Origin: Candidatus Tayloriibacteriota bacterium
Lineage (GTDB): Bacteria > Patescibacteriota > Minisyncoccia > Phycocordibacterales > PALSA-1337
Reading direction: 5' to 3'
Length of the DNA: 64,000 bases
Assembly: GCA_016215455.1 (NCBI GenBank)
Contig: JACRJP010000002.1
Coordinates: 2,809 to 66,808, forward strand
The notes below the pieces were generated by a model. It was not told the origin of the DNA, made no database searches, and saw nothing but the letters and a program-made list of their open reading frames with translations. A program made the position numbers and the translations under genes. Positions 8,305 to 36,680 of the stretch are shown one piece after another (position 1 is the first letter of the stretch; each line of letters begins with the position of its first letter).

Positions 8305-8307
8305 ATA

Positions 8308-8838
8308 TTATCGTATGGCATTATATATAGAACCATATAACACTTCTTCTGAAACAACTCCTCCAGGTCCATCCCAATACACTCGTATTTTTACAGAATA
8401 TTCATTGTCGTTAGTCGAAGCTTTTGTAAACTCCATAGTTCGACTAAACATTGTTCGAGTATTTGCTGCCGCACCGTTATGTGTAAACTTCCCTTCAGGA
8501 GTAAGATATAGTCGTGCTGGATCAGAGCTTTCTGCTCCGTTAGCACTCGAAATGCTTGGAGAATCACTTGCTGTATCTATTTTACAAACTGAATTCTTAC
8601 AACCATTTAGTGAAAGAGGAAGCCATACCGCACTGTCCTCTAAATATCCGTTATCTCGAATATTCTTAACCACTTCCAGAGCATCTTGTGCGAGATAGTT
8701 AGCAACAATCTGATCGCGTGCATACAAAGCAGACTTAAGAGATTTACTTGCAATTGTAAGTGGTCCTGCAATAGCGATCATAAGGACGGTGATCGCGACA
8801 AGAGTTTCTACAAGTGTAAATGCTCGTTGGGTATTCAT
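8308..8838 (-). CDS. prepilin-type pseudopilin (GspH/PilV-like)
   Basis: N-terminus RAFTLVETLVAITVLMIAIAGPL carries the prepilin cleavage/methylation motif. Its stop overlaps the start of the upstream gene. Confidence 0.65.
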   Translation of the reverse strand: MNTQRAFTLVETLVAITVLMIAIAGPLTIASKSLKSALYARDQIVANYLAQDALEVVKNIRDNGYLEDSAVWLPLSLNGCKNSVCKIDTASDSPSISSANGAESSDPARLYLTPEGKFTHNGAAANTRTMFSRTMEFTKASTNDNEYSVKIRVYWDGPGGVVSEEVLYGSIYNAIR

Positions 8839-8839
8839 A

Positions 8840-9463
8840 TTAGTTATTCATAAGACGAGGAGATACCGACGTCTGAAGTGAAAATGTTGTCTTTATTTTT
8901 TCTTTCGACCCTGAATATCCTTGAAGATTTATCTTGGCATATGGCTGACCTGGCATTCCCTTCACCGTAGGTATTATTACCGAAAAAGGATTGGTAGTTG
9001 TAATAACAATATCTTTTGCTGTGACATCGTCATATGTAGGAGTACTACCGCAACTAGTCTGTTCAGCTTTTTGAATCTTTCCTACCAAAGGATTTGCGCT
9101 CGTAACAAGCTTGTATACGTAAATCAAATTACATGTACCACCTGATCCATCAGGTGCTGCTACCGATGAACGAAAAGCCATGACACTACCTCCAGAACAA
9201 GCAGTCTTTGTGAAGGCTGTCCAACTTGGATCACTATTTCCACAGTAATAATCAGTTCCTACTCGCATTTCACGAGACATTGATTCAAGAGTGAAATTGA
9301 GATTATTAATAGCAGTTTTAAGAGCTTGGGCTTTTTTATTAGCATCAATGATTTTAATAAAAGCACCGAGCGCAACAACTGATACGAGTGCAAAAATACC
9401 CAATGAAACAATCATCTCAACGAGAGAGAAACCTTTTTTGTAATGATGTATAGAAAGTTTCAT
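8840..9463 (-). CDS. prepilin-type pseudopilin (PilW/GspJ-like)
   Basis: N-terminus KKGFSLVEMIVSLGIFALVSVVALG (G-F-x-x-x-E prepilin motif). Confidence 0.6.
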   Translation of the reverse strand: MKLSIHHYKKGFSLVEMIVSLGIFALVSVVALGAFIKIIDANKKAQALKTAINNLNFTLESMSREMRVGTDYYCGNSDPSWTAFTKTACSGGSVMAFRSSVAAPDGSGGTCNLIYVYKLVTSANPLVGKIQKAEQTSCGSTPTYDDVTAKDIVITTTNPFSVIIPTVKGMPGQPYAKINLQGYSGSKEKIKTTFSLQTSVSPRLMNN

Positions 9464-9466
9464 ATA

Positions 9467-10075
9467 TTAATCTTCAATAGAGATTTGTCCTGTTTTACGA
9501 ACTACAATATTTTTAAGATTACCTTGAGGAGACACCAATACTATTTTAACATACGACAACACCCCACTATTACCTGTGATAATAGCATCGGGATCAGGAC
9601 GTCGAAACGCAATACTCACATTTGGTGTGGTACTTGTACATCCTGAATTGGTACATATTTTCTGAACCACAATTCCTCTCTTGAGAACATACTTTGAAAT
9701 TGCTTCATCTACTGGAGTAGATGTATATATAGAGTTATTTTCAGTTGAATCAACAAAGAAGATAAACTGAGAGTTAGAACCACCTGTTGAACTTAGATAC
9801 ACACCGTATGCACACTGAAAGGTATCCGTACTGTTCACAGAGGAACAACTCGAAGGTGCTTCCTTTACGTTTAATCCGTACGTCTGTGCCTGACGAATTG
9901 TGAGAGCTACATCATATGCAAGATTTGTCACAATAATCCCCTGAGTCGCGTTTCCGTATTTAACAGCAAGAAATGCGGTCACAAAAGCAAAAATAGCAAC
10001 TGTGACCATGAGTTCAATCAAAGTGAACCCTCGAGATACCACAGACTGTGTTTTTTTATTGGAAAAAAAGCGCAT
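9467..10075 (-). CDS. prepilin-type pseudopilin (FimT/GspH-like)
   Basis: Motif SRGFTLIELMVTVAIFAF. I trimmed the start to the internal ATG at 10075 so that the overlap with pilD is only about 19 nt. Confidence 0.6.
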   Translation of the reverse strand: MRFFSNKKTQSVVSRGFTLIELMVTVAIFAFVTAFLAVKYGNATQGIIVTNLAYDVALTIRQAQTYGLNVKEAPSSCSSVNSTDTFQCAYGVYLSSTGGSNSQFIFFVDSTENNSIYTSTPVDEAISKYVLKRGIVVQKICTNSGCTSTTPNVSIAFRRPDPDAIITGNSGVLSYVKIVLVSPQGNLKNIVVRKTGQISIED

Positions 10076-10847
10076 TGAGGAACAAGAAATCAAGATGTCC
10101 AAACCATGCAATATACATGCCGAGAATGAGGTATGGAGCAAACGGAACCTCGACATTCCTAATTGTACGCTTTTTCTTGAGTATCACCAAGTAGATAACA
10201 CTGAAGACTGCCCCGAGCCAGAACGCCATAAAAATCCCTGATACACCGAAGACAAGTCCGGCAAGCCACCCAAGACTTACCACAAGTTTTGCATCACCAA
10301 ATCCAATCCATCGGCCTTTTGAAACAAACCAAAGTCCACCAAATACAGCAAAGAAGATAATACCCGACAAGAAATCAATGAGTTGAGGGAGATGGAGAAG
10401 TGACTCCCCTCCAACGAATAAACCTATGAATGAAACTGCCATGAGAGTAAATGAGAGGCTATCGGGAATAATCTTATGTCGTAGATCGTACACAAAAATA
10501 ACAATAAGAATAGCAGCAGCTATGGCATGAATAACAAAATACAGCATTGCGGGAAGTGTAAAAGGTTCGATACTGTAATACAGCAGTACAAAGAGAACTG
10601 CAGTAGCAGTTTCTACCATTGGATATTGATACGAGATATCACTTCGACAACTCCTACAACGTCCTCGGAGAAAAACAAAACTTACTAACGGTAGTAGTTC
10701 ATACCACTCGAGTTTTTTTGCACAAGAAAAGCATTGTGATCGTCCTCCTATCCCCTTACTACTGTTGTATCTTAAAATAACAACATTCAAAAAACTTCCG
10801 ATGATCAGACCAAATATTGCTACAAATACTCCGATAATGACCAGCAT
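10056..10847 (-). CDS. pilD: prepilin peptidase / N-methyltransferase (A24 family)
   Basis: 263-aa polytopic membrane protein. Has the N-terminal Zn tetracysteine (QCFSCAKK...RGRCRSCRSD) and the conserved catalytic aspartates of peptidase A24. Confidence 0.85.
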   Translation of the reverse strand: MLVIIGVFVAIFGLIIGSFLNVVILRYNSSKGIGGRSQCFSCAKKLEWYELLPLVSFVFLRGRCRSCRSDISYQYPMVETATAVLFVLLYYSIEPFTLPAMLYFVIHAIAAAILIVIFVYDLRHKIIPDSLSFTLMAVSFIGLFVGGESLLHLPQLIDFLSGIIFFAVFGGLWFVSKGRWIGFGDAKLVVSLGWLAGLVFGVSGIFMAFWLGAVFSVIYLVILKKKRTIRNVEVPFAPYLILGMYIAWFGHLDFLFLNALFFQ

Positions 10848-11407: not shown

Positions 11408-12496
11408 ATGTGCTACGATAATGATACCTACAATCTCATGAAAAAGATTCCCCTAGAAATTCTAATCGTATTCCTCCCTTGTGTCATTTTTCTCATACTC
11501 TCTCTGCTCTTTTTCCCAAAATTTCTGATCCTTATAACCCTCAACATACTTGATTTGAGTGGTTTCCAACTCATTATCGAAGGAGGAATACTCAAGGTAC
11601 TTGGAATAAGCTTCCTTATACTATCTATAAGCAGTATCCTATCTTTAATTTTTCTAAAAAAACAGTACTCTCTCAAAGACCTTACAAAAAGTTTCTGTTA
11701 CTTTTTACTTCTTGTTGGTGTGCCCGGATTCTTTTATTCATCATTAGCGTTTTACTTATTTACACATGCTGATATTCCTAAAGTAATAGAATACAGCAAA
11801 CTTTTTTCTCATTATGACAAAGTCATGTTCGGTACTGATATTTTCTTTACAATGCGACCTCTAGAAAAAATTCCTTTATTTGAATTTTTTGTTCTCCATA
11901 GCTATAGCTTATTAGTTCCTATATGTTCAGTATGTGCTCTTGGTATGTATATCTTCAAACCTCTTATATTTAGAAGATTCATTGCAAGCTTCTTTCTTGC
12001 TATGGCACTCGGCATCCCTATGTGGCATTACTTTCCAGCGGTAGCGCCAGCATCATTGTATCTCACTAATATTTTTAGACTCCACCTTGAACCAGAAGAT
12101 CAACAAGCTATCAACAATGACCGTATATCACCTCTTTTGCGAGAAAAACTAACCGAACAAAATAATCTGTATTTTGATCCTACCCTACGAAATATTAATA
12201 CGAGTAGTAATCCATCCATGCACGCAGCGTGGGGATTTATCATATTCTTCTATCTCTATATGTACTCAAAAAGATTGGTATACATCGCTGGAATCTATAG
12301 TATCCTCAATGTACTCGGGGCTCTCTATGTCGGACAACACTTTGGAATCGATATACTCACAGGTATATGTATTGCTATATTGAGTATATATACAGTCGAA
12401 AAAATCTTTACCCGATATGGTAAAGATTTTTTGGAAACACCGTATTATACAGTTAGCTACGCGATCAGAGGGATTATATACAAACTCCGTTATTGA
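11408..12496 (+). CDS. PAP2 (phosphatidic acid phosphatase type 2)-like polytopic membrane protein
   Basis: 362 aa with about 9 TM helices. Contains PSMHAAWG (like PSGH) and YVGQHFGIDILTG (like SRxxxxxHxxxD). It is the only plus-strand gene inside the pilus cluster. Confidence 0.45.
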   Translation: MCYDNDTYNLMKKIPLEILIVFLPCVIFLILSLLFFPKFLILITLNILDLSGFQLIIEGGILKVLGISFLILSISSILSLIFLKKQYSLKDLTKSFCYFLLLVGVPGFFYSSLAFYLFTHADIPKVIEYSKLFSHYDKVMFGTDIFFTMRPLEKIPLFEFFVLHSYSLLVPICSVCALGMYIFKPLIFRRFIASFFLAMALGIPMWHYFPAVAPASLYLTNIFRLHLEPEDQQAINNDRISPLLREKLTEQNNLYFDPTLRNINTSSNPSMHAAWGFIIFFYLYMYSKRLVYIAGIYSILNVLGALYVGQHFGIDILTGICIAILSIYTVEKIFTRYGKDFLETPYYTVSYAIRGIIYKLRY

Positions 12497-12980
12497 TCTG
12501 TGATGTTGTAATTGACGCTGCTGATGTAATAGATGGCCAAACTTTATTATTCCCTGAACTATCAACACACACAGTTCCAGATCCATCAGGTAAAACAGCT
12601 GCAACTGCCCACTTTGTTGCAGGACTTGTTGCACTCGAAACATCAAATGAACATATATAGTCAGTCGCAGCAGATAAGTTGTTAGTCAAACCAGTTCTGA
12701 TTGGTGTAACTGAAGTTGCAGCAAATGCACCGTTTGCACAACCTGTAGTATCACCCTTGCCAATAGCATAGTTTGTTGTTGCACCATATCCAGTTCCATC
12801 TGAATTGATTTCAAGCTGACTTCGAAGACTATTGAGAGTAGCTTTCACTGACGTAGCCTTACTTCTACTTCGAGCTGTACCAAGTGAGGCGAGTACAACT
12901 GAAGACAAAATACCAATAATAGCGATGACCACGAGCAATTCAATCAATGTGAAACCTTTTGAAAAACGATTATATTCCAT
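12474..12980 (-). CDS. type IV pilin (tandem paralog A)
   Basis: Motif SKGFTLIELLVVIAIIGILSSVVLASLGTARS followed by a Gly/Ser/Thr-rich domain with two Cys pairs. Confidence 0.75.
   Translation of the reverse strand: MEYNRFSKGFTLIELLVVIAIIGILSSVVLASLGTARSRSKATSVKATLNSLRSQLEINSDGTGYGATTNYAIGKGDTTGCANGAFAATSVTPIRTGLTNNLSAATDYICSFDVSSATSPATKWAVAAVLPDGSGTVCVDSSGNNKVWPSITSAASITTSQINNGVCI
12869..12957. repeat. 89-bp perfect direct repeat, copy 1 (5' end of pilin paralog A)
   Basis: Identical nucleotide string TTCGAGCTGTACCAAGTGAGGCGAGTACAACTGAAGAC...AATGTGAAACCT occurs again at 13424-13512. Confidence 0.8.
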
Positions 12981-13031
12981 GAGTAAATATTATTTTTTAA
13001 TACACTAAGTATATCATGCTTGAATAAAATC

Positions 13032-13068
13032 AAAAAAAACACCCGCCATACGACGGGTGTTTTTTTTG
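13032..13068. terminator. bidirectional rho-independent terminator
   Basis: A8 run, stem ACACCCG/CGGGTGT with an 8-nt loop, then T8 run. Confidence 0.7.
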
Positions 13069-13088
13069 ACAACAAACTAATTGAAATA

Positions 13089-13529
13089 TTAGTTACAGCC
13101 AGCTGATGCTACAACACCACTGATTGACTTAGCTGCACCTAAACTATCAACACACCAATTATTTCCTCCCTTGAGAGGTACTGACACTGCCCAATATGAA
13201 GCTGATGCTCCACAAGTAGCAGCACCTGCAGCGTTTGATGTTGTTGCTGAATTCAAAATATTCTTAACGGTAGCATCACCAAAGAGACCGAGAGTCTGGC
13301 AGTTCGCAGTTGAAGTTCCAGCTGTTCCAGAAGGCATATATGAATTATTTGAATCATAATAAAGTTCTGCCTGTGAACGAACCTGAGCGAGAGCTCCCTT
13401 AATTGCTGTGTCAGCAGCCTTAGTTCGAGCTGTACCAAGTGAGGCGAGTACAACTGAAGACAAAATACCAATAATAGCGATGACCACGAGCAATTCAATC
13501 AATGTGAAACCTGATGTCTTAATTTTCAT
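13089..13529 (-). CDS. type IV pilin (tandem paralog B)
   Basis: Motif TSGFTLIELLVVIAIIGILSSVVLASLGTART. The C-terminal domain carries Cys pairs. Confidence 0.75.
   Translation of the reverse strand: MKIKTSGFTLIELLVVIAIIGILSSVVLASLGTARTKAADTAIKGALAQVRSQAELYYDSNNSYMPSGTAGTSTANCQTLGLFGDATVKNILNSATTSNAAGAATCGASASYWAVSVPLKGGNNWCVDSLGAAKSISGVVASAGCN
13424..13512. repeat. 89-bp perfect direct repeat, copy 2 (5' end of pilin paralog B)
   Basis: Identical to 12869-12957 by direct comparison of the nucleotide string. Confidence 0.8.
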
Positions 13530-13688: not shown

Positions 13689-14897
13689 CTACTGAGCAGC
13701 TGAGATGTTATAGATAGGAACAAGCACAGCAGCAAGAAGGAATGCTACACCGAGACCGAGCATAACAATCATAAGTGGCTCAATAAGATCAACAAGTGCA
13801 TCAACAGCCGTCTCTACTTCACGTGCATAGAATTTAGCGAGAGTCTTTAGGATGTTACCGAGTTCTCCTGTTTCTTCACCCACCTTAATCATTTGAATCA
13901 TGATACCTGGGATTTGATCGTTACCTGACAATGCCTCAGAAACAGGTTTACCTCCCTTCACTGCCTCTACGGCGCCTGCAATAATAGAGTTATATATCTT
14001 GTTATCAATCACTGATGAGGTGAGTTCAAGAGCTCGGATCATAGGAATACCCGATACAAGCATAGTATTCATGTTATCTGACAAACGTGAGAGATATAGC
14101 TTCTTATAAAGAGTACTGATATATGGAACAGAAAGCTTAAATCGATCAAACGCAATACTTCCTTCTGGAGTCTTCACAAAACGATAGATAAGGTACCCTA
14201 TAATCGCTGCAATACCAACAATAACGAAACCGTAGTGTACCAAACCGTTACTAATAGCGAGAACGACTTTGGTGTAGATAGGAATCTCCTGACCTGATTC
14301 AACAATAATTGCACTGATCTTTGGAATCACAACAGTAAACATGAGTACCATCACAGTAACGAATGTAAATACCACGAAAGCTGGGTAAATAAGAGCGCTC
14401 TTTGCCTTTGAGGTAAGTTCATATGAACGATCAAGGTAGTCAGCAAGATAATTGAATGTTTCATCAAGACGTCCTGATTCTTCACCTGCCTTTACCATAC
14501 TGATATAAAATTCAGAGAACACTGTTGGATGTTTTCCAAGAGAAGTTGAGATAGAACTACCACCCTGAAGATCATCTGCAATAGTTGCGAGTTTTACTCG
14601 AAGGAGTTTGTTCTCTGTTTCCTCCCCAAGAAGACGGAAGACTCGAAGCGCAGAGACCTGCGCCTGAAAAAGTGTTGAGAGTTGTCGTGACAAGATAACA
14701 ACATCCTTATTTGACACTCGCTCAAACCACGAAATATTTACATCAAAAATAGACTTCTTTCCTCCTGTTTCGTGAATATTTGTGATGACAAAGCCTCGTC
14801 GCTGGAGTGATGCAATAGCAATGTCGACATTAACAGCATCAATTGATCCTGTTTTTTTCTCTCCTTGAGCATCGACAGCTTGGTAAGTAAAAAGCAT
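13689..14897 (-). CDS. pilC: type IV pilus inner-membrane platform protein (GspF/PilC family)
   Basis: 402 aa with two GspF-like repeats and three TM segments. Confidence 0.85.
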   Translation of the reverse strand: MLFTYQAVDAQGEKKTGSIDAVNVDIAIASLQRRGFVITNIHETGGKKSIFDVNISWFERVSNKDVVILSRQLSTLFQAQVSALRVFRLLGEETENKLLRVKLATIADDLQGGSSISTSLGKHPTVFSEFYISMVKAGEESGRLDETFNYLADYLDRSYELTSKAKSALIYPAFVVFTFVTVMVLMFTVVIPKISAIIVESGQEIPIYTKVVLAISNGLVHYGFVIVGIAAIIGYLIYRFVKTPEGSIAFDRFKLSVPYISTLYKKLYLSRLSDNMNTMLVSGIPMIRALELTSSVIDNKIYNSIIAGAVEAVKGGKPVSEALSGNDQIPGIMIQMIKVGEETGELGNILKTLAKFYAREVETAVDALVDLIEPLMIVMLGLGVAFLLAAVLVPIYNISAAQ

Positions 14898-14902
14898 GGT
14901 GT

Positions 14903-15964
14903 TTATAACATTCTATCAAGAGTCTTAGGATTGAGCGAGTGTTGATATGCACTTTCTGCCGTAATTTCCCCTGCTCGAACAAGATCAGCGAGACATCGGT
15001 TCATATCGATCATACCTTCATTCGAACTTGTTTCAACAATAGTATTGATTTCATGAATACGTTTTTCACGAATGAGATTTGAAACAGCATTATTTGCAAT
15101 CAAAAGTTCGTATGCAGGGATAAGACCTCCTGATACTCGTGGAATAAGTCGTTGTGAAAAGATACCCGTAAGACTTCCTGCGAGCTGTACTCGAATCTGA
15201 TCCTGTTGTCCTGGTGGGAATGAGTCAATGATACGGTTAATGGTTTGTGAAGCATTATTCGTATGGAGTGTTGAGAAAATGAGGTGGCCAGTTTCAGCAG
15301 CTGTTACCGCTGTTGCCATAGTTTCGATATCTCGCATTTCACCAATAAGAGCAACGTTCACATCCTGACGAAGCATTCCAACAAGAGCTGTATGAAAATC
15401 CGGTGTATCAAAACGAACTTCTCGTTGATCGATAATCGACTTCTTTGATTCGTACATATACTCAACAGGATCTTCAATAGTAATGATATGCTCAGCTCGT
15501 GTCTGATTAATCATTTCAAGCATAGCTGCCAATGTGGTCGTCTTTCCTTGACCGATAGGTCCTACCACAAGAAAGAATCCCTGCTGTTTACGAGTGAATG
15601 TTTCAAGAATTGGAGGAAGATTAAGATCTTGAAGTGTCTTAATTGTTTTAGGAATCAAACGAAGTGCGACAGAAATAGCACCCTGACGATAAAAAGCATT
15701 TCCTCGAAAACGAGCGACACTCCCTACCGCATATGAGAAGTCCACTTCACGAAGCTCTTCAAATCGAGCTTTATTTTCTTTTGAAAGGAGCACATCGAGA
15801 AATCCATGAATATCCTTTTGAGTTAATTCAGTCTTTTTCACTAATGGCAAAAGTTGACTTGATACTCGAATGACTGGATGACGTCCTTCAGCAATGTGGA
15901 GATCAGAAGCCCCTTCTTTGAGCACCATATCTACCATTTCTTCAAGTTCTCTTTTGTAGTCCAT
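14903..15964 (-). CDS. pilT: type IV pilus retraction ATPase (PilT family)
   Basis: 353 aa. Walker A GPIGQGKTTT, Asp box, Walker B and a His box (TLHTN). Length is typical of PilT. Confidence 0.85.
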   Translation of the reverse strand: MDYKRELEEMVDMVLKEGASDLHIAEGRHPVIRVSSQLLPLVKKTELTQKDIHGFLDVLLSKENKARFEELREVDFSYAVGSVARFRGNAFYRQGAISVALRLIPKTIKTLQDLNLPPILETFTRKQQGFFLVVGPIGQGKTTTLAAMLEMINQTRAEHIITIEDPVEYMYESKKSIIDQREVRFDTPDFHTALVGMLRQDVNVALIGEMRDIETMATAVTAAETGHLIFSTLHTNNASQTINRIIDSFPPGQQDQIRVQLAGSLTGIFSQRLIPRVSGGLIPAYELLIANNAVSNLIREKRIHEINTIVETSSNEGMIDMNRCLADLVRAGEITAESAYQHSLNPKTLDRML

Positions 15965-15968
15965 ATGA

Positions 15969-16364
15969 TTAACCTTTTATTTTCTTATAAATCTTATTCA
16001 CCTCTTCAAGCACCTCCGATGGAATGGTTGAGGCTTTGATGATATATCCATCAACATGTAATTTCTGAGCTCGTTCAACATCAGAAGGAGCACTTTGATT
16101 AGTGAGCATGATCACCACAGCATTCGGAGCAAGTTTCTCTTTTCGAATTACCTCGAGAAGTTCAACCCCGTCCATTCCTGGCATTACCACATCAAGAAGA
16201 ATAATATCGGGTAACAAACCTCCATCTCGAAGTACTTTCAGTGTTTCTTCAGGCCCTGCTGCACAATGTACGTCATACCCATTCTTCGAAAACTTCAATG
16301 AGTACATATCAAGAAGGAATTTATCATCATCAACAAGAAGTAGAGAAATTGGTTTTGTAGACAT
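15969..16364 (-). CDS. single-domain response regulator (CheY-like receiver, PilH/PilG-like)
   Basis: 131 aa. Motifs LLVDDD, ...LLDVVMPGMDG, ...DGYIIK. Confidence 0.75.
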   Translation of the reverse strand: MSTKPISLLLVDDDKFLLDMYSLKFSKNGYDVHCAAGPEETLKVLRDGGLLPDIILLDVVMPGMDGVELLEVIRKEKLAPNAVVIMLTNQSAPSDVERAQKLHVDGYIIKASTIPSEVLEEVNKIYKKIKG

Positions 16365-16415
16365 AAAAGTTCTGAGTAATCTTATTATACTATAACTTCG
16401 ACCAAATTAATGACA

Positions 16416-18146
16416 TTACAGTGTATTAACTTCCTCAAATGGGATAAGTCCTTTAAATGCTTTTAACATAGCATCCTCTTTCATAGTAAGCATTCCCTTT
16501 TGACGAAGAATTTTTGAGATCTCAAGCTCTGTTGGACTTTTCATAAGAACTGATTCAATTTCTTTGTCCATCATAAACACTTCAAACACTGCCTGACGAC
16601 CTCGAGTTCCCTTTGGACATTCAGGAGTTGGTACCGCTTCATATACAGTCTTACCGATTTCAATTTGACTTCGAAATTCTGCAGGAAAATCACCGAATTG
16701 TTTGTCGACAATCGCTTTAATAGCACCTTCAACAGGAATAGGTTTTCCACCACCAGGACAGAGAGTACGAACGAGACGTTGAGCCATGGCACAGATAAGA
16801 GTTGGTGCAATAAGGTACGGATCAACTCCCATATCAATAAGACGAGGAATAACACCTGCAGCGTTATTGGTGTGAAGTGTAGAGAATACCAAGTGACCGG
16901 TAAGAGCAGCCTGTACAGCAAGCTGTGCAGTTTCTTTATCTCGAATTTCTCCCACCATGATCACATCAGGGTCCTGACGAAGTGTTGTACGGAGACCGGA
17001 CGCAAATGTATATCCAATTTCAGGGTGCACTTGTGACTGTGCAATTCCTTCCATGTTGTATTCCACTGGGTCTTCAAGTGAAAGTACGTTCATTGCCTCT
17101 TTATCAACCTCATTGAGCATGGAATATAGAGTTGTTGATTTACCGGAACCTGTTGGACCAGTAATCAAAATGAGACCGTACGGACGATGAATAGCGTCTC
17201 GAACACGAGCAAGATTGGTTGGAGTAAGCCCAACATCATCAAGTTTCTTTACCCCCTTATCAGGGTCAAGAATACGCATCACCACCTTTTCTCCGTAGTA
17301 TGCGGGGAATGTTGAGACTCGGAAGTCGATACGACGTCCTTCAATACGAGCAGAGAAACGTCCGTCTTGTGGCTTTCTCTTTTCATCAAGCTTCATGTTT
17401 GAAAGCACCTTAATACGAGCAACTACAGCGCTATGCACTTTCATTGGAAGAACAAGACTTGTATTAAGCACACCATCAACACGGAAACGAACTCGAAACT
17501 TATCATGCATTGGCTCAATATGCACATCGGATGCATTACCTTCTGTTGCATAACGAACAATCGTTGCCACAATTTTTACCACCGGAGCGTCTTCGATGAT
17601 AAGAGGTTCTGCTCCGCCAGCACTTCCAGGAATTGGCGCACCCTTTGGTGGAGTTACTGTTGAATCACTATCGACAGAGAGAACAGTTTCAAGTTCAGAG
17701 AGAGCTTTTGACACTTCCCCTGTAATACCTTTGTACATTTCAATGACCTTTTCAAAGTCTTGTGTACTGATAATAAAAATTTTATATGGAACATTTTTCT
17801 TTGCTGCAATAAAGTTCAAAGCATCACGTGCCTCAATGTTATCAGGATCAACAATACCAACTTCAAGTGCTCCATCTTTAAGAGCAAGTGGTACAAACTT
17901 ATAATGAATAGCTGATTCTTCAGGAATATACTCGAGAATTTCAAAAGGAATACTGATGTCTTGAAGAGCTCGAATTGGCACATTCATAAACTCCCCTTTT
18001 GCTATAAGAATATCTTCTGGTTTGACCCCACGATCAATCAAAGCTTTTTCAAGGGTAACATCCCCAGAGGCCGTCATCTTGCGGACCTCCTGCACATCTT
18101 CCTTTGTTATGACATTTTTCTTTAGCAGGATATCGACGACACTCAT
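16416..18146 (-). CDS. pilB: type IV pilus assembly ATPase (GspE/PilB family)
   Basis: 576 aa. N-terminal T2SSE_N-like domain, Walker A GPTGSGKSTT, His box TLHTNNA. Confidence 0.9.
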   Translation of the reverse strand: MSVVDILLKKNVITKEDVQEVRKMTASGDVTLEKALIDRGVKPEDILIAKGEFMNVPIRALQDISIPFEILEYIPEESAIHYKFVPLALKDGALEVGIVDPDNIEARDALNFIAAKKNVPYKIFIISTQDFEKVIEMYKGITGEVSKALSELETVLSVDSDSTVTPPKGAPIPGSAGGAEPLIIEDAPVVKIVATIVRYATEGNASDVHIEPMHDKFRVRFRVDGVLNTSLVLPMKVHSAVVARIKVLSNMKLDEKRKPQDGRFSARIEGRRIDFRVSTFPAYYGEKVVMRILDPDKGVKKLDDVGLTPTNLARVRDAIHRPYGLILITGPTGSGKSTTLYSMLNEVDKEAMNVLSLEDPVEYNMEGIAQSQVHPEIGYTFASGLRTTLRQDPDVIMVGEIRDKETAQLAVQAALTGHLVFSTLHTNNAAGVIPRLIDMGVDPYLIAPTLICAMAQRLVRTLCPGGGKPIPVEGAIKAIVDKQFGDFPAEFRSQIEIGKTVYEAVPTPECPKGTRGRQAVFEVFMMDKEIESVLMKSPTELEISKILRQKGMLTMKEDAMLKAFKGLIPFEEVNTL

Positions 18147-18157
18147 ATGTAGTTTAA

Positions 18158-18508
18158 TTATCTACCCGCAGCTGGAACACGTGGAGTTGAAGTAGTAGCA
18201 GAACGAGATGAAGATCCCAGTGGTGCGAATGGATTCACACGACCAATAGGGATTGCTGGAACTTCGATAGTATAGTCAACGAGTACCTTGTATTCGAGAG
18301 ATTCGAACAAAGAATTATCAATTTTAAGATTATTAAGTTGTACAAGAAGAGCTGCAATATCATCTCCTCCTGCAATAGAACCCTGAACCTCACCTGGAAT
18401 CATTGTGAAAGCTGGTTCATTGTTTCCAGAGAAACCAAAATAAGCGGCAACAGCTGCTGCTATCAGAATGACGATGATTATAATTGTTTTTGTATTTGAT
18501 CCGTTCAT
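18158..18508 (-). CDS. small signal-anchored protein in the pilus operon (possible PilP-like)
   Basis: 116 aa with one N-terminal TM helix. Located between the pilB and PilO-like genes. Confidence 0.4.
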   Translation of the reverse strand: MNGSNTKTIIIIVILIAAAVAAYFGFSGNNEPAFTMIPGEVQGSIAGGDDIAALLVQLNNLKIDNSLFESLEYKVLVDYTIEVPAIPIGRVNPFAPLGSSSRSATTSTPRVPAAGR

Positions 18509-18509
18509 G

Positions 18510-19112
18510 TTAGTTTTGGCGAAGCCAATATGTCTTAAGCTCTACAGAAAAGTCATACACATTTGAATCAGTTGGAGCAAATGAAATCTTTGTTATATCA
18601 AGAATACGAAGACTAAGTTCAAGATCGTGGAGAATATTAATAAAATTCTCATATGTCGTAGTGACATTAAAATTCATGGTCAAAGCATCATACTTTGAAA
18701 GAGATGCTGGGGCTTGCTGCTGAATACTTGGTGCTGGAGAACCAGACACACTTGCAGCACCTCCTGTTGCAGGTGCTGTCTTAGTTGAATTTCCTCCTCC
18801 TGTACGAACATTCTTGATCGAAACTCCTCGACGAGAAGTAATACCGTTGATATCGATAATCAAACGTATGTTATCAATATGATCAGGTAGCAATTTCTTG
18901 AGTCGTTCACGGTCCACCTCAGCAATACTGTTGTATGCATTAATAACTTGATCTCGTTTTTTGAGAAGCTCTTTTGAATCTTCAAGTGTCTTGCTGAATT
19001 GAGCATTTTCAGCCATGGCAGCACGCACCTTGTCATACTGACCGACAGTAAAGGTAAAGAAGATACCTATCGCGACTATTATGAGTACTAATGGAAGAAT
19101 GTTTCGGTTCAT
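18510..19112 (-). CDS. PilO-like pilus assembly protein
   Basis: 200-aa bitopic protein with a TM helix, a coiled-coil segment and a C-terminal domain. Its position follows the PilN-like gene. Confidence 0.55.
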   Translation of the reverse strand: MNRNILPLVLIIVAIGIFFTFTVGQYDKVRAAMAENAQFSKTLEDSKELLKKRDQVINAYNSIAEVDRERLKKLLPDHIDNIRLIIDINGITSRRGVSIKNVRTGGGNSTKTAPATGGAASVSGSPAPSIQQQAPASLSKYDALTMNFNVTTTYENFINILHDLELSLRILDITKISFAPTDSNVYDFSVELKTYWLRQN

Positions 19113-19117
19113 AATGG

Positions 19118-19837
19118 TTATTGACGAGTAGATGTTGCAGTTGTTGTTGCAGACGGAGTCGACACATCCGTAGGTGATGTTCCTCCACTCAAAGCACTTT
19201 CGATATATTTCTTAAATGAAATTTCTTGTGGATCAACTCCAGCACTGAAAGAAAATCCTACTGTCCCCTTATCATCGATACCGAAATCAGATACAACAGG
19301 ATCCTTGAGTACCTTACTTCCCCCGAAGACATCAGACTGGAATGCAAGCACAGGAAGAGATGTTCCTTCACCCTTCATACTCATAACAATTCTATCCTTA
19401 ACATTTGTTGGAAAAGTAACATCAAATGACTTAAATCGTACACTTGTTGTTGTTTCTCTCCCTATAACATCAAAGATATTCGCCACAGCGAGGTGGTTGT
19501 TGATTAATTCTCTCGAGAGATTTATTTTTGCATTGAAGCGCTCGAGAAACTTAATGTCTGTACCGAACTGTTCACGATTGTGTGTAATCTGTTTTTTATA
19601 ACTCTCCTGTTGCTTTTGTAATATTTTTGTCCAAGCAAATACTCCACCCGCCATAGCAACTGAGATAATGAAAACAAGAACACCAATGATACTAAAAAGA
19701 CTAACTGATTGGTGGATCTGTTGTCCTGTCTCCGGGACAAGTGGCTTTTTCGGTATGAATGATGTTTGAAATTTGGTTTCCATGGAAAAAAGGAACTGTA
19801 GTGAGTATATTATAGCCCAGAACAAACCTTCCGACAC
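19118..19837 (-). CDS. PilN-like pilus assembly protein (start may be the internal ATG near 19783)
   Basis: Bitopic protein with a Ser/Thr-rich tail. Lies immediately downstream of pilM. Confidence 0.55.
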   Translation of the reverse strand: MSEGLFWAIIYSLQFLFSMETKFQTSFIPKKPLVPETGQQIHQSVSLFSIIGVLVFIISVAMAGGVFAWTKILQKQQESYKKQITHNREQFGTDIKFLERFNAKINLSRELINNHLAVANIFDVIGRETTTSVRFKSFDVTFPTNVKDRIVMSMKGEGTSLPVLAFQSDVFGGSKVLKDPVVSDFGIDDKGTVGFSFSAGVDPQEISFKKYIESALSGGTSPTDVSTPSATTTATSTRQ

Positions 19838-19858
19838 TAGTAAAGTGTGTATATCTCG

Positions 19859-20980
19859 CTACTGAATTTCAGAAAGACGGCGTAGAGCAATACCTATAGC
19901 GACCGCGAATTCAGGACCGGCAGTTTTGAATTGTTCAGCAAGGAATGCAGGTGTTTCGAGCTTACCAAAAGGATCTGCGTATACAACATTGTTCTGGAAA
20001 CTCGTCTTAGCAAGTTCAGTAAAACCCTTAAGAAGTACTCCTCCCCCTGTAAGGATGATTTTACTGATATCTTTATTGTATTTTCTTTGATAGCCGAGCA
20101 TCACACGATTCGCTTCATAAAAAACATAGTCGAGAGTAAGACTAATAACGTCAGTTAATTCCTTATGTTCAGGTCCTCCCGTCAAACCATACACTCGCTT
20201 CATATTTTCTGCTTCAGTAACTGGAATACTCAGAGATTTTGAAATAGCTAATGTAATATCTTGTGATCCTCGATTAATAATATGAGATGTTCGCAAAAGC
20301 CCTCGCTCGATAATGTAGAGTTTTGTGGTACTTGCTCCCATATCTACCACCATATTTGCCTGAATACCTTGATCAAGTACTGCACGGAGTGAACTGAAGA
20401 GCTCTATCTCAAAGAATGATGATTGAAGTCCTGTCTTTGCCATAAGGCCTTGGTAGTTAGCGATAGATTCGTTGTGTATCGCAACAACAAGAACTTCACT
20501 TGTTCCTTTGTTGACTGGTGGTTGTGATCCAGCTGGAAGCGAAGTATCTTCAATTGCATCTTCTTTAGGAATTATTGACCAATCAAGGAGAACTTCAGTA
20601 ATTGGTACAGGAATATACTTTCGAGCTTCGAGAGTAATAATCTCTCCAATCTGTTTACTATCAGTAGCAGGGACATTAATAAAACTAATAAGGCTCGATG
20701 AGAGTGGTAATGCGGTACCACATGTCTTTGTTGTTGTTTTTGCTTCACGCAAAATATCAGTAAGCGCCTGAGCTGTTTTTTCGAGAGTAAGGTTAGTTGC
20801 ACGTCCAATTTCAGTGCCTCCATAAGGACCGAGAGCAAGTTCACCATAGGTTTCAAGAACAGCTCTTCCTTTCTTTTTCTTGATTTGTACAATCTTAATC
20901 GCTGACGAACCGATATCAATACCAAGAACACTTTGTTCCTTTTTGCCGAATATAGAAAAGATGTTCTTTAGAAAATCCAT
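19859..20980 (-). CDS. pilM: type IV pilus assembly protein PilM (actin-like ATPase fold)
   Basis: 373 aa. N-terminus GIDIGSSAIKIVQIKK... with FtsA/actin-like phosphate-binding motifs. Confidence 0.8.
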   Translation of the reverse strand: MDFLKNIFSIFGKKEQSVLGIDIGSSAIKIVQIKKKKGRAVLETYGELALGPYGGTEIGRATNLTLEKTAQALTDILREAKTTTKTCGTALPLSSSLISFINVPATDSKQIGEIITLEARKYIPVPITEVLLDWSIIPKEDAIEDTSLPAGSQPPVNKGTSEVLVVAIHNESIANYQGLMAKTGLQSSFFEIELFSSLRAVLDQGIQANMVVDMGASTTKLYIIERGLLRTSHIINRGSQDITLAISKSLSIPVTEAENMKRVYGLTGGPEHKELTDVISLTLDYVFYEANRVMLGYQRKYNKDISKIILTGGGVLLKGFTELAKTSFQNNVVYADPFGKLETPAFLAEQFKTAGPEFAVAIGIALRRLSEIQ

Positions 20981-34330: not shown

Positions 34331-34344
34331 CTAAAAGTGAGCAT

Positions 34345-34404
34345 TTTTATTACCTACCCTTTCTTCTCTACACCTCCCATGAGACTTTTTACAAATTCTT
34401 TTAC
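34345..34404. repeat. imperfect ~58-bp direct repeat, copy 2 (true 3' end of gene 34354..35061)
   Basis: See copy 1. Confidence 0.6.
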
Positions 34405-35061: not shown

Positions 35062-35339
35062 ATATTATTTTGAATCACCACCTCCTTTTTTCTGATCAAA
35101 TTTACCATCACCTTTTGAATCTTTCTTCTTTGATCGAGTATGTGGACCGAGTAATACATAGAGCACCACTATGACACCTGCAGCAATGAGTATATCCATA
35201 AATAATACGTTATGCGTGTAATTATAAACCTAACTTGTATAAAAAGAAACGGATGATCATATATATCTTCCCTACCTTTTCTCATATATAATTATGATAA
35301 AGGTCGCACAACTTTAATAAAAATAATTGTACTACGATT

Positions 35340-35417
35340 ATGGCAATATGCGTTGGATGCGGTCACGAACACACAGGTCCTAATGGGACATGCACATGTG
35401 GATGTGAGACAAAATAA
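35340..35417 (+). CDS. candidate small Cys-rich peptide (25 aa: MAICVGCGHEHTGPNGTCTCGCETK)
   Basis: Short ORF directly followed by a strong terminator at 35427-35456. No clear Shine-Dalgarno sequence. Confidence 0.3.
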   Translation: MAICVGCGHEHTGPNGTCTCGCETK

Positions 35418-35426
35418 ATAACCTAT

Positions 35427-35456
35427 AAAAAATCACTCGTATGAGTGATTTTTTAT
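35427..35456. terminator. bidirectional rho-independent terminator
   Basis: A6 run, stem ATCACTC/GAGTGAT with loop GTAT, then T7 run. Confidence 0.6.
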
Positions 35457-36373
35457 TTCTCTTGCACCACCAACCTCTTAACAACAGGTGCTTCAGCGAG
35501 ATACATTGATCGAATCTGAGAATCAGCTAAAGCATTACTATAGATATGTACTTCATCAATTACCCCAAGAAAATTATTCCAATCAGCAGTCGAGTCCTGT
35601 TGTCCTAATATAATCGTAGCACCCGAAAGATCACCTGCTTCAGTGTACTGTGCCTCAGAAATTTTTGTTCCATTTAAATAACCTTTCATAGTTTGTGTAC
35701 TTCCTGATGCACCACCTGTCCATGAAAGTGCTACGTTAGTCCATTCCCCAACTTTAGCTTCACCTATATTTAGATTAGTCGCACTCGAGCCCCTCACCAC
35801 TGATACTGTACTTCCAAGTATTCGTAAATAAATTCGATTTGATCCAGACCCTACTGCAAAAAAGAGAATTCTCTGTCCCTGACCAGCTGCACTCAAGTCA
35901 CTAGGCTTAAACCACAAAGATACAGTTCCTCCTTTACTGGTAATACCTGAAAGAGCTGAGGTCGCAGGAACTGTTATCGATAATCTATCTGCACTTGATT
36001 GAAAATTGATCGCATTACCTAAAATCCCTGATACAACCTGAGGAGCACCCGCAACACTGAGGTTGAGTAAATTCCCTGAAAGGTCACTCACCCTTGTTGG
36101 ACTCGTATCAATTGCATCCATACTCCAATAGACAGGTGCATCAGCGCCGTACGCATGATACGTACTTGCATCAAATTGTTTACCCGCCGCAAGTTTAGCT
36201 TTCGTTCGAGTTGTAGTAAGACTTGCAAGTACCACCGAAGAAAGTAGTCCAATGATTGATATAACTACAAGTAGCTCAATGAGCGTAAAGGCTTTTGTAG
36301 AAAATACAGAGAATGATTTCATGTACGTAAATAATAACACACTCAATAAAATGATTACCACTTTTTTATCCAT
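35453..36373 (-). CDS. prepilin-type N-terminus fused to a LamG/concanavalin-A-like lectin domain (candidate adhesive tip pilin)
   Basis: Motif KAFTLIELLVVISIIGLLSSVVLASL. The C-terminus shows the LamG_3-type signature ...GEWTNVALSW...LGVIDEVHIYSNALADSQI. An alternative start lies at the internal ATG near 36322. Confidence 0.65.
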   Translation of the reverse strand: MDKKVVIILLSVLLFTYMKSFSVFSTKAFTLIELLVVISIIGLLSSVVLASLTTTRTKAKLAAGKQFDASTYHAYGADAPVYWSMDAIDTSPTRVSDLSGNLLNLSVAGAPQVVSGILGNAINFQSSADRLSITVPATSALSGITSKGGTVSLWFKPSDLSAAGQGQRILFFAVGSGSNRIYLRILGSTVSVVRGSSATNLNIGEAKVGEWTNVALSWTGGASGSTQTMKGYLNGTKISEAQYTEAGDLSGATIILGQQDSTADWNNFLGVIDEVHIYSNALADSQIRSMYLAEAPVVKRLVVQEK

Positions 36374-36379
36374 ACTTTG

Positions 36380-36680
36380 ACAGATTCAAAAATATACGAT
36401 ATCGTATTGTCATGACACATTTGTCAAATATACAGCTTCATACAGTTTGGATGCCGGTGTTTGCCGGGTACCAGAAGACCGACCTTATCTCACGAGGTCT
36501 CTTTATGCTTATGTCTAGCCGAAATATTTGTAGTATGTAATCTTTAATCTCATACAAACATAGAAATATCCCGGCTGAATGTAAGTCGGGATTTTCTTTT
36601 TCTAACATTCAGTAGACGTACTCATTGTGCGCAATTCGGGTATGTACCCGTAAGTTCTTTACAACCAACTCCCTACTACT
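36380..36680 (+). promoter_or_regulatory. 300-nt structured non-coding leader upstream of the MFS transporter, with a terminator-like hairpin (candidate riboswitch or attenuator)
   Basis: Hairpins CCGG-TGTTTG-CCGG and AGACC...GGTCT. Near 36581-36615, ATCCCGGCT..AGTCGGGAT is followed by TTTCTTTTTC. No upstream plus-strand gene is present for that hairpin to terminate. Confidence 0.25.

What the first reader, a model, noticed from the sequence alone, without database searches (positions are those of the whole stretch)
35453..36373. Pilin N-terminus fused to a LamG/lectin-like domain, a candidate host-binding tip pilin
The class-III signal and hydrophobic helix (KAFTLIELLVVISIIGLLSSVVLASL) are followed by a ~250-aa domain with laminin-G/concanavalin-like signatures (…GEWTNVALSW…VIDEVHIYSNALADSQI). 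Such a fusion would place a carbohydrate- or protein-binding module on a type IV pilus. That fits an episymbiotic or attached lifestyle. The gene sits apart from the main pilus cluster, next to the candidate tmRNA-associated island.
Basis: partly seen in the sequence, partly recalled or inferred. Interest (0 to 1): 0.5.

Follow-up and report, generated by a model that had tools for sequence, protein, structure and literature searches.

The report
LamG-headed type IV pilin, strain-variable head
This gene encodes a type IV pilus subunit whose usual small head is replaced by a lectin-like LamG domain; that design is already catalogued and common in ultrasmall (CPR) bacteria, but here the binding head has been swapped wholesale between two otherwise nearly identical strains.

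Summary
A 306-codon ORF lies on the minus strand at 35453-36373, with the start more likely at M18 (36322), giving 289 aa. It has a prepilin N-terminus (MKSFSVFSTKA|FTLIELLVV; Ala -1, Phe +1, Glu +5), which passes the PF07963 and TIGR02532 cut-offs. It also has a Laminin_G_3 domain (64.5 bits against a cut-off of 27.6).

The kind is known. The identical protein is deposited (MBI5126190.1, Candidatus Taylorbacteria MAG). More than 1,000 relatives share the architecture. Published work lists it among the commonest modular pilins and describes lectin-like minor pilins in Saccharibacteria.

"Tip" and "host-binding" remain inference. The protein keeps Glu5, and its alpha1 matches the putative major pilins rather than the minor-pilin operon, which has its own Glu5-less cap candidate.

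One new point: between strains whose flanking genes are about 98-100% identical in protein, the LamG core is only ~45% identical (dS 1.75 against 0.01-0.03). This indicates exchange of the head module by recombination.

The parts
35453..36322 (-). Coding sequence of the LamG-headed prepilin (289 aa plus stop, start at M18)
   Evidence: ORF. 100% identical to NCBI MBI5126190.1, which is 289 aa. Pfam PF07963 and PF13385 both score above their cut-offs.
36323..36373 (-). 17 in-frame upstream codons (MDKKVVIILLSVLLFTY); an alternative start used by one gene caller, probably not translated
   Evidence: (Logan calls of 306/297 aa) against (NCBI call of 289 aa). Family leader lengths have a median of 9 residues. 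The segment is modelled only as a low-confidence helix in allele B.
36290..36322 (-). Class III leader peptide MKSFSVFSTKA. The predicted PilD cleavage site lies after Ala (-1) and before Phe (+1, 36287-36289).
   Evidence: Motif scan. Family alignment: F+1 in 55/55, E+5 in 55/55, and -1 is G in 44 and A in 11.
36140..36289 (-). alpha1 helix (the hydrophobic alpha1N with Glu5, plus the amphipathic alpha1C): the constant 'stalk'
   Evidence: AF2 helix at residues 14-61. 86% mean pairwise identity across the family for alpha1N. 96% identical between alleles A and B.
35540..36133 (-). LamG / ConA-like beta-sandwich head, starting two residues after alpha1
35558..36115 (-). Divergent head cassette: the stretch with no blastn match to the sister strain, although the flanks are 95-99% identical
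   Evidence: breakpoints 35557 and 36116 in two independent assemblies. (identity profile, with indels). (dS 1.75, dN 0.50).
35456..35530 (-). Conserved C-terminal helical tail (LADSQIRSMYLAEAPVVKRLVVQEK), identical in both alleles
   Evidence: 96% identity. AF2 helices at 267-288 with low-to-moderate confidence; a single helix at 275-296 in allele B.
35425..35456 (-). Intrinsic-terminator-like hairpin overlapping the stop codon
   Evidence: 14-pair stem followed by a T run. The sequence is visible.
36391..36418 (-). Candidate sigma-70-like promoter (GTGTCA-16-TATATT); a consensus match only
   Evidence: The number of such sites in the region does not exceed the shuffled expectation, so this is weak.
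10056..10847 (-). Prepilin peptidase (PilD-type, A24), the enzyme expected to cleave the leader
   Evidence: PF06750 102.9 bits and PF01478 40.7 bits.
12474..13529 (-). Two tandem small pilins (about 140-160 aa), candidate major pilins whose alpha1N matches the target 24-26/30
   Evidence: The alpha1-coding DNA repeat family D1 includes the target.
13689..20980 (-). Pilus assembly machinery: PilC (13689-14897), PilT-like ATPase (14903-15964), PilB (16416-18146), PilO-like (18510-19112), PilM (19859-20980)
7690..10077 (-). Minor-pilin operon: three divergent pilins (8308-8838, 8840-9463, 9467-10077) plus a Glu5-less pilin-like ORF (7690-8304, G|YTLLF), the more likely cap of the filament

Best explanation
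The gene encodes an accessory (non-core) type IV pilin of a Candidatus Taylorbacteria (Paceibacteria/CPR) bacterium. In it, a LamG/ConA-like jelly roll takes the place of the usual pilin head.

Proposed mechanism:
1. The prepilin inserts in the membrane through alpha1N.
2. The PilD-type peptidase encoded at 10056-10847 removes the 11-residue leader after Ala-1 and methylates Phe+1.
3. The PilB/PilC/PilM-O machine of the same window then lifts the subunit into the filament. Its major-pilin-like alpha1 with Glu5 packs among the small major pilins.
4. Because the roughly 200-aa head is bulky and joins the helix without a linker, it is probably incorporated rarely. The likely positions are near the tip, below the Glu5-less cap and the operon minor pilins, or sparsely along the shaft.
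5. There it displays a ligand-binding surface, most likely for a glycan on a partner or host cell envelope.

The head is a strain-variable module. The constant alpha1 stalk and C-terminal tail are kept, while whole LamG cores of ancient divergence are exchanged by homologous recombination. This would change binding specificity or surface antigenicity.

Shown: the gene, the signal motif, the fold, the machinery, the widespread family and the mosaic allele structure. Inferred: cleavage, incorporation, position in the filament, the ligand class, and the selective reason for the head exchange.
For: - Prepilin motif and LamG domain both score above curated cut-offs.
- F+1, E+5 and alpha1N are invariant in 55 relatives.
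- The AF2 model has pLDDT 87.9 and pTM 0.84, with helix 14-61 followed by a beta-sandwich at 64-261. Allele B gives the same design, pLDDT 88.3.
- AbnA domain 4 binds arabinan on its own with a Kd of 1.4-11 uM (PMC9110388).
- PilC's lectin module binds human glycans and sits in a tip complex although it has Glu5 (PMC9934059).
- Saccharibacteria PilX1 and PilX2 are lectin-like minor pilins, and rhamnose blocks host binding (PMC11623550).
- PilD, PilB, PilC, PilT and PilM/O are all in the window.
- alpha1N matches the candidate major pilins 24-26/30, against 8-9/30 for the operon minor pilins.
- A Glu5-less cap candidate lies at 7690-8304.
- Mosaic alleles: flanking proteins are 97.8-100% identical, except orf151 beside the tmRNA at 77%, while the pilin is 61%. 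The termini are about 96-100% identical and the core about 45%, with indels. Core dS is 1.75 and dN/dS 0.28, against flank dS of 0.013-0.034. Allele B occurs in two independent samples.
- Head and stalk groupings disagree. B's head is 63-64% identical to the heads of P0004 and P0006, whose tails are only 35% and 62% identical to B's.
Against: - There are no expression, proteomic or binding data.
- The model's coordinates could not be inspected. Packing of alpha1C on the sandwich and steric fit in a filament are therefore untested.
- No ligand-site residues are conserved across the family. The conserved head positions (W137, W194, Y215, G218, D256) are the core motifs of PF13385.
- The best Foldseek matches (neurotoxin H_CN) have no established sugar-binding role (stated from memory), so the fold alone does not prove lectin activity.
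- The gene has its own terminator and is 14 kb from the machinery, so co-regulation with the pilus is not shown.
- Only two alleles were recovered at this locus. The parallel case (P0004/P0005/P0009) has more diverged flanks, 82-97% nt, and rearranged gene order.
Confidence: 0.6

Rival explanations
1. It is a dedicated tip subunit, part of the priming/cap complex. It would be assembled first with the operon minor pilins and sit at the very end of the filament as the adhesin.
For: The bulky head joins the helix without a linker. Raynaud et al. argue that modular pilins are most probably exposed at the tip. S. sanguinis PilC, which has a lectin module and Glu5, is modelled in a tip complex.
Against: It is not encoded with the minor-pilin operon. 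Its alpha1N resembles the major pilins (24-26/30), not the minor pilins (8-9/30). It keeps Glu5, and the operon has its own Glu5-less cap candidate. In relatives the gene sits in various contexts: sometimes next to a small pilin, and once beside the pilus cluster.
Confidence: 0.2
2. It is the major structural subunit of a second, thicker filament built by the same machinery, with a LamG domain on every subunit.
For: alpha1N is nearly invariant and of the major-pilin type, with Glu5. The family is very large, and several paralogues can occur on one contig: P0014 and P0017 are on the same 217-kb contig. Saccharibacteria do build two distinct pili.
Against: A head of about 200 aa on every subunit is much larger than the heads of the 140-160-aa pilins next to the machinery, which are the obvious major pilins. 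No second set of assembly genes lies nearby. Whole-head replacement between strains would have to preserve all head-to-head contacts in a homopolymer.
Confidence: 0.1
3. It is not part of a long pilus. Instead it forms a short pseudopilus or surface-anchored display, comparable to the archaeal 'bindosome' of class-III-signal sugar-binding proteins (recalled from memory). The LamG domain would capture polysaccharide or nutrients at the cell surface.
For: The closest solved homologue is a carbohydrate-binding module of a polysaccharide-degrading enzyme. The neighbouring gene is an MFS transporter. CPR bacteria depend on scavenging (abstracts).
Against: The MFS gene is divergently transcribed, and the pairing is not conserved in more distant relatives. 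The machinery in the window includes a PilT-like retraction ATPase, typical of true T4a pili. Head hypervariability fits recognition of variable partners better than binding of a generic polymer.
Confidence: 0.08
4. The head divergence is produced in place, either by a diversity-generating retroelement or by rapid positive selection, rather than by import of old alleles.
For: DGRs are reported to be frequent in CPR bacteria (from memory). The variable segment is sharply bounded.
Against: The alleles differ by several indels and at every kind of site. Synonymous divergence is saturated (dS 1.75) with dN/dS of 0.28, the signature of long purifying evolution. No template-like repeat of the head exists in the window. 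B's head is closer to heads in other lineages than to A's.
Confidence: 0.02

Closest known systems
Modular type IV pilins with the IPR012902 + PF13385 (ConA-like lectin) architecture, as catalogued by Raynaud et al. 2021 (PMC8179133)
   Same: An N-terminal prepilin motif followed by a PF13385 domain. The architecture is listed among the 15 most frequent of more than 1,200 modular pilins, and several of the representative proteins come from CPR phyla. The top 120 relatives here nearly all carry PF07963 + PF13385, and some sources name them 'LamG-like jellyroll fold domain-containing protein'.
   Different: The published definition assumes a complete pilin module joined by a short linker to the extra module. 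Here the model leaves no room for a separate pilin beta-sheet: the sandwich starts two residues after alpha1. No member of this CPR subfamily has been studied experimentally, as far as the searched literature shows.
Streptococcus sanguinis PilC (minor pilin with a lectin module; PDB 7oa7)
   Different: PilC is 52.8 kDa, with a short pilin moiety plus an Ig-like module plus a galectin-like lectin. It is encoded in the pil operon and needs PilA for stability. The present protein is about 30 kDa, has no Ig module, lies at a separate locus, shares only 13% identity, and belongs to the Laminin_G_3/H_CN/AbnA-D4 branch of the fold.
Nanosynbacter lyticus TM7x PilX1 (Saccharibacteria lectin-like minor pilin; PMC11623550)
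   Same: A CPR bacterium, a pilin with a jelly-roll domain resembling L-type lectins, and proposed glycan-mediated host binding. Exogenous rhamnose blocks attachment.
   Different: PilX1 carries the jelly roll as an additional C-terminal domain on a lollipop pilin and is encoded within the pilus locus. NCBI CD-Search does not recognise its domain, whereas this head is a clear PF13385 member.
AbnA domain 4 of Geobacillus stearothermophilus (5hon/5ho0) and the S-layer-domain protein 4qvs
   Different: They are domains of a secreted glycoside hydrolase and of an S-layer protein, not pilins. Conservation of the sugar-binding residues was not examined.
Non-core minor pilins of Neisseria (PilV, PilX, ComP), and pilin allele exchange in Neisseria and Pseudomonas aeruginosa (recalled from memory, not tested)
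   Same: They have a major-pilin-like alpha1 with Glu5, are encoded away from the machinery, and add a function such as adhesion or DNA binding. They combine a constant N-terminus with a variable, recombining C-terminal head.
   Different: Those pilins have ordinary small heads. Variation in Neisseria uses silent pilS cassettes in the same genome, and none was found in this 64-kb window. Here the C-terminal tail is also constant.

Membership tests
Type IV pilin / class III signal peptide proteins (PF07963, TIGR02532) | Profile match above the curated cut-off | tested here: met
   PF07963 scores 23.5 against 21.2. TIGR02532 scores 25.4 against 16.3.
Type IV pilin / class III signal peptide proteins (PF07963, TIGR02532) | A short basic leader ending in Gly/Ala at -1, Phe/Met at +1, Glu at +5, and about 20 hydrophobic residues | tested here: met
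   MKSFSVFSTKA|FTLIELLVVISIIGLLSSVVLASL. In the family, -1 is G in 44 and A in 11 members, and F+1 and E+5 are present in 55/55.
Type IV pilin / class III signal peptide proteins (PF07963, TIGR02532) | An extended N-terminal alpha1 helix of about 50 residues | tested here: met
   AF2 helix at residues 14-61, pLDDT 83-92. The same is seen in allele B.
Type IV pilin / class III signal peptide proteins (PF07963, TIGR02532) | A canonical pilin head: alpha1C packed on a dedicated 4-5-stranded antiparallel beta-sheet | tested here: not met
Type IV pilin / class III signal peptide proteins (PF07963, TIGR02532) | A cognate prepilin peptidase and assembly ATPase/platform in the genome | tested here: met
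   The A24 peptidase at 10056-10847, plus PilB, PilC, PilT-like, PilM and PilO-like proteins.
Type IV pilin / class III signal peptide proteins (PF07963, TIGR02532) | Actual cleavage, N-methylation and incorporation into a filament | not testable with these tools
   This needs biochemistry or proteomics.
Laminin_G_3 / concanavalin A-like lectin-glucanase superfamily | Profile match above the gathering score | tested here: met
   PF13385 scores 64.5 bits against 27.6, E 1.6e-17, covering profile positions 12-150 of 151.
Laminin_G_3 / concanavalin A-like lectin-glucanase superfamily | A two-sheet jelly-roll beta-sandwich fold | tested here: met
Laminin_G_3 / concanavalin A-like lectin-glucanase superfamily | A functional carbohydrate- or calcium-binding site | not tested
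   Only core residues are conserved in the family. Residue-level superposition on AbnA-D4 or CBM40 ligand sites was not possible without coordinates.
Modular pilins sensu Raynaud/Pelicic | [quoted passage not shown] | tested here: met
Modular pilins sensu Raynaud/Pelicic | A complete pilin module joined to the functional module by a short linker | tested here: not met
   There is no separate pilin beta-sheet and no linker: the helix ends at residue 61 and the first strand starts at 64.
Core minor pilins of the tip/priming complex (HIJK-type; cap subunit K) | Encoded in the minor-pilin operon, with a divergent alpha1N, and the cap subunit lacking Glu5 | tested here: not met
   The locus is separate. 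Glu5 is present. alpha1N matches the major-type pilins 24-26/30 and the operon pilins 8-9/30. The Glu5-less candidate is a different ORF, 7690-8304.
DGR variable proteins | A variable region differing from a nearby template repeat at adenine-templated sites, with a reverse transcriptase nearby | tested here: not met
   The alleles show indels, saturated dS and dN/dS of 0.28. No repeat of the head is present in the window. A reverse transcriptase gene was not searched for systematically.

The most novel reading that the evidence does not exclude
In Paceibacteria-type CPR bacteria, the LamG head of this pilin family may be an exchangeable specificity cassette. The invariant alpha1 stalk and the conserved C-terminal tail would double as homology arms. 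Whole heads of ancient divergence would then move between strains, and even between lineages, switching which partner or host surface the pilus recognises (or evading phages that use it). The head type would then be a genomic marker of host range in uncultivated episymbionts.
Probability: 0.3. Interest if true: 0.55.

Novelty: new member of a known kind. Interest (0 to 1): 0.3.

Why it matters
How ultrasmall CPR/Patescibacteria find and hold their hosts is largely unknown outside a few cultivated Saccharibacteria. Pili with lectin-like subunits are the leading candidates. This gene adds no new kind of protein. It does give a clean natural example in which, between two nearly identical strains, the only strongly diverged feature of this locus apart from the tmRNA-adjacent orf151 is the binding head of a pilin. 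That is the pattern expected of a specificity determinant. If head type tracks host identity, the family could be used to predict partners of uncultivated Paceibacteria from metagenomes. The two heads (alleles A and B) would also be a ready-made pair for glycan-array or host-binding experiments.

Tried and rejected
(1) DGR or in-place hypermutation as the source of head divergence. Rejected on indels, saturated dS, dN/dS of 0.28 and the absence of a template repeat.

(2) Silent donor cassettes in the window. tblastn with both heads found only the gene itself. The rest of the 245-kb contig could not be examined.

(3) Collecting more alleles through conserved neighbours. The search for related loci with the MFS protein (metagenome contigs) and with orf235 (genome contigs) both returned nothing. 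An exact look-up of P0001 was not on record. An exact look-up of the invariant 44-aa neighbour gave only three assemblies.

(4) A four-gamete recombination argument from the 284-aa versus 270-aa calls of the neighbouring ORF. Dropped because L007, which carries the 270-aa call, is 100% identical to the window over 10,135 bases; at least that length difference is a start-codon call.

(5) Sizing the fused family with the exhaustive representative search. The profile is swamped by giant multi-LamG proteins (766,548 hits at E<=0.001, and the best 150 hits are 1.3-7.7 kaa proteins with 6-38 repeats). The counts therefore describe the LamG domain, not the pilin fusion.

(6) The afdb50 fold library was unavailable.

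(7) A tmRNA-integrated island containing the pilin. There is no duplicated tmRNA 3' end, and the pilin block is shared by both strains.

(8) The second lineage (P0004/P0005/P0009) as an independent clean replicate. It is only suggestive, because the flanks are 82-97% identical and the gene order differs.

(9) Weak hits to Pentaxin, Toxin_R_bind_N, TafC and the Verru_Chthon cassette proteins all fall below their cut-offs. They reflect the shared fold or the shared N-terminus only.
Full report
OBSERVATION. It lies on the minus strand at 35453..36373 (306 codons), and the translation contains both quoted motifs. Pfam finds Laminin_G_3 (PF13385; E 1.6e-17; 64.5 bits against a gathering score of 27.6; residues 142-287). 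It also finds the prokaryotic N-terminal methylation motif (PF07963; 23.5 bits against 21.2; residues 27-49). NCBIfam's TIGR02532 'IV_pilin_GFxxxE' also passes its cut-off (25.4 against 16.3). The equivalog models for particular pilins (GspG, GspH, ComG) match only the first ~35 residues and fall far below their cut-offs. An intrinsic-terminator-like hairpin overlaps the stop codon (35425-35456).

START CODON AND CLEAVAGE SITE. The sequence around the processing site is MKSFSVFSTKA|FTLIELLVV, with Ala at -1, Phe at +1 and Glu at +5. The identical protein in NCBI (MBI5126190.1, a Candidatus Taylorbacteria MAG, on a 245-kb contig) is called from M18 and is 289 aa. A different gene caller used the upstream ATG, giving 306 aa. 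In 55 aligned relatives the leader has a median length of 9 residues, F+1 and E+5 are invariant, and -1 is Gly in 44 and Ala in 11. Three of the eight prepilin-type N-termini in this window also have Ala at -1. That prepilin peptidases tolerate Ala at -1 is my recollection of the Pseudomonas PilD mutagenesis literature, not something tested here. M18 (36322) is therefore the more likely start, and either start yields the same mature protein.

A profile of the family matches 4qvs (an S-layer-domain protein) at E 6.4e-22 and AbnA at 6.4e-21 by sequence alone. The second refutation condition, 'no LamG-like profile or structural similarity', is therefore also not met. The post-helix region is fully occupied by the sandwich. 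There is no separate pilin beta-sheet and no linker, so the LamG domain is the pilin's head rather than an appendage to a complete pilin. I could not view the coordinates, so the packing of alpha1C on the sandwich is unverified.

CONTEXT. The window encodes a complete type IV pilus system:
- prepilin peptidase, 10056-10847
- PilC platform protein, 13689-14897
- PilT-like ATPase, 14903-15964
- PilB with an MshEN domain, 16416-18146
- PilO-like protein, 18510-19112
- PilM, 19859-20980

Seven other prepilin-type genes are present. They comprise two tandem small pilins (12474-13529) next to the machinery, one beside PilD (10848-11369), three divergent ones in an operon (8308-10077), and a lone one (24256-24882; N_methyl only). 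The target's first 30 mature residues match the two small tandem pilins at 26/30 and 24/30, but the three operon pilins at only 8-9/30. The ORF that ends the operon (7690-8304) begins MKNIFPQQKNG|YTLLF. It is pilin-like but has Phe instead of Glu at +5, the hallmark the literature ascribes to the capping 'K' subunit. The immediate neighbours of the target are an MFS transporter (divergent), a PLD-family protein, and several ORFs with no Pfam match. SmpB, a bona fide tmRNA (ARAGORN, and Rfam at 103.7 bits) and FtsH lie 2.3 kb away and beyond.

HOW COMMON IT IS. The word-indexed search returned 1,057 relatives at E<=0.001 among the 8,000 candidates scored. Of the best 120, all but two carry PF07963 + PF13385. 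Where named, they are 'prepilin-type N-terminal cleavage/methylation domain-containing protein' or 'LamG-like jellyroll fold domain-containing protein', from Paceibacterota, Patescibacteria or Taylorbacteria MAGs. Raynaud et al. (PMC8179133) defined 'modular pilins' and found more than 1,200 of them in 264 architectures. They list PF13385 among the modules of the 15 most frequent architectures, and several of the representative proteins come from CPR phyla. Shahin et al. (PMC9934059) solved S. sanguinis PilC and showed that its lectin module binds human glycans. They modelled it in a tip complex although it has a canonical Glu5. Grossman et al. (PMC11623550) describe lectin-like minor pilins in a cultivated Saccharibacterium and sugar-inhibitable host binding. 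The kind is thus established. This particular CPR subfamily, with the LamG domain directly on alpha1, has not been studied experimentally in anything I could find.

AN UNEXPECTED FEATURE: THE HEAD IS A SWAPPED MODULE. The closest relative, P0002 (63% identity), sits in the same gene order: PLD, orf284, MFS, pilin, orf44, orf235, orf183, orf151. Seven neighbouring proteins were compared. Six are 97.8-100% identical between the two strains. The exception is orf151, beside the tmRNA, at 77%. The pilin is only 61% identical. At the DNA level, 36116-40250 is 98.8% identical and 33168-35557 is 95.2% identical, yet blastn finds no match at all across 35558-36115. The protein alignment shows residues 1-79 and the last ~25 residues essentially identical, while the core is about 45% identical with several indels. 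Nei-Gojobori estimates are:
- core: dS 1.75, dN 0.50, dN/dS 0.28
- N-terminal stretch: dS 0.10
- C-terminal stretch: dS 0.12
- four flanking genes: dS 0.013-0.034

The core is therefore not evolving fast in place. Two anciently diverged heads, each under purifying selection, occupy the same slot, which means replacement by recombination. Allele A (the window) recurs with 100% identity over 10 kb in an independent Logan assembly, which may derive from the same sample as the MAG. Allele B occurs in two different runs, so assembly artefact is unlikely. Neither head has a second copy in the window, and both heads have ordinary GC content. Allele B models as the same stalk-plus-sandwich design (pLDDT 88.3).

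Head and stalk also give incongruent groupings. B's head is 63-64% identical to the heads of P0004 and P0006, whose tails are only 35% and 62% identical to B's. A's head has no relative above 49%. A second lineage (P0004/P0005/P0009) repeats the pattern, with stalk 96%, tail 88-92% and head 46-56% identity. Its flanks are only 82-97% identical and the gene order differs, so I count it as suggestive only. Across all 55 relatives, mean pairwise identity is 86% for alpha1N, 49% for alpha1C, 24% for the head and 33% for the tail.

MECHANISM (shown versus inferred). Shown: the gene, the signal motif, the fold, the machinery, the size of the family and the mosaic alleles. Inferred: PilD cleaves after Ala-1; the PilB/PilC machine incorporates the subunit through its major-pilin-like alpha1; and the bulky, linker-less head restricts it to rare incorporation, either near the tip below the Glu5-less cap or sparsely along the shaft. 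Also inferred: the head binds a ligand, most likely a glycan, because the closest solved homologue, AbnA domain 4, binds arabinan on its own with a Kd of 1.4-11 uM, and because characterised lectin pilins bind glycans. Head replacement between strains is what one expects of a specificity or antigenic determinant. Whether the selective agent is host identity or phage and predator pressure cannot be decided here. No ligand-site residues are conserved in the family. That fits diverse specificities, but it is equally what a non-binding scaffold would show.

RIVALS. The alternatives considered are a dedicated tip subunit (0.2), a major subunit of a second filament (0.1), a short surface display or pseudopilus for polymer capture (0.08), and in-place diversification by a DGR or hypermutation (0.02, effectively refuted). 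They are set out in the structured fields with their tests.

THE 'tmRNA ISLAND' REMARK. Synteny with strain B stops at 33168, which is 44 nt after the tmRNA 3' end and just past its terminator hairpin. Strain B carries Peripla_BP_6 and TrmB genes there that are absent from the window, and no tmRNA 3'-end repeat is present. Something strain-specific does border the tmRNA. But the pilin and the four ORFs between it and the tmRNA are common to both strains, so the pilin is not inside such an island.

VERDICT. The architecture is right, while 'tip' and 'host-binding' remain hypotheses, with some evidence against a capping role. It is a new member of a known kind and is already deposited and correctly annotated at the domain level. 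Its main added value is the strain-level head swap. Interest is 0.3.

Noticed in passing
window 33716-33757 and 34362-34403: A 42-nt direct repeat (95% identical) brackets orf183 (33779-34330, +). One copy is the 3' end of orf235 (...KEFVKSLMGGVEKKG). The other lies in a 73-aa minus-strand ORF (33573-33794...KEFVKSLMGDVEKR...). It looks like a duplicated gene end left by an insertion or rearrangement around orf183, and it is also present in strain B.
   Followed up: partly
window 33168 (just 3' of the tmRNA at 32711-33126); L001 7057-10771: Synteny with the sister strain ends 44 nt after the tmRNA, right after its terminator hairpin. The sister strain has Peripla_BP_6 / TrmB / Peripla_BP_6 genes there, none of which occur in the window. 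No tmRNA 3'-end duplication was found.
   Followed up: partly
window 33228-33683 (+), orf151: This ORF next to the tmRNA is only 77% identical (dS 0.77) between the two strains, while its neighbours are 98-100% identical. It is a second locally diverged gene in the region. It has no Pfam match.
   Followed up: no
window 37956-38810 (+), orf284: A secreted-looking protein with no Pfam match and GC of 0.545, against 0.41 for the window. Its C-terminus (VPENSTWAAIAFLTLPVGWVVLRRRK) resembles a PEP-CTERM-type sorting tail. That resemblance is from memory and was not tested.
   Followed up: no
window 7690-8304 (-): The 204-aa ORF at the end of the minor-pilin operon has a prepilin-like start, MKNIFPQQKNG|YTLLF, with Phe instead of Glu at +5. 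This makes it a candidate GspK/PilX-type cap subunit. It has no Pfam match.
   Followed up: partly
window 23186-23274 and 29449-29523 (-): ARAGORN calls tRNA-Ser with anticodon ACT and tRNA-Ile with anticodon TAT, both unusual anticodons for bacteria. They were not examined further.
   Followed up: no
window 11261-11352, 12866-12957, 13421-13512, 36202-36293: The alpha1N-coding DNA of four pilin genes forms a direct-repeat family. The two tandem small pilins are 99% identical over 92 nt, and the target is 64% identical to them. This is shared sequence that could support recombination among pilin genes.
   Followed up: no
L003 6001-7431; L009 5402-6849; L012 349-2099: In a related groundwater lineage, the LamG pilin is paired with a ~192-aa small pilin whose position (before or after) differs between assemblies. 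A third head variant sits on short contigs from the same samples. This suggests a locally rearranging or strain-variable pilin locus.
   Followed up: partly
protein library hits P0122-P0271: The same LamG_3 subtype is repeated 6-38 times in giant proteins of 1.3-7.7 thousand residues, and these dominate the exhaustive profile search. Their organisms and roles are unknown.
   Followed up: no
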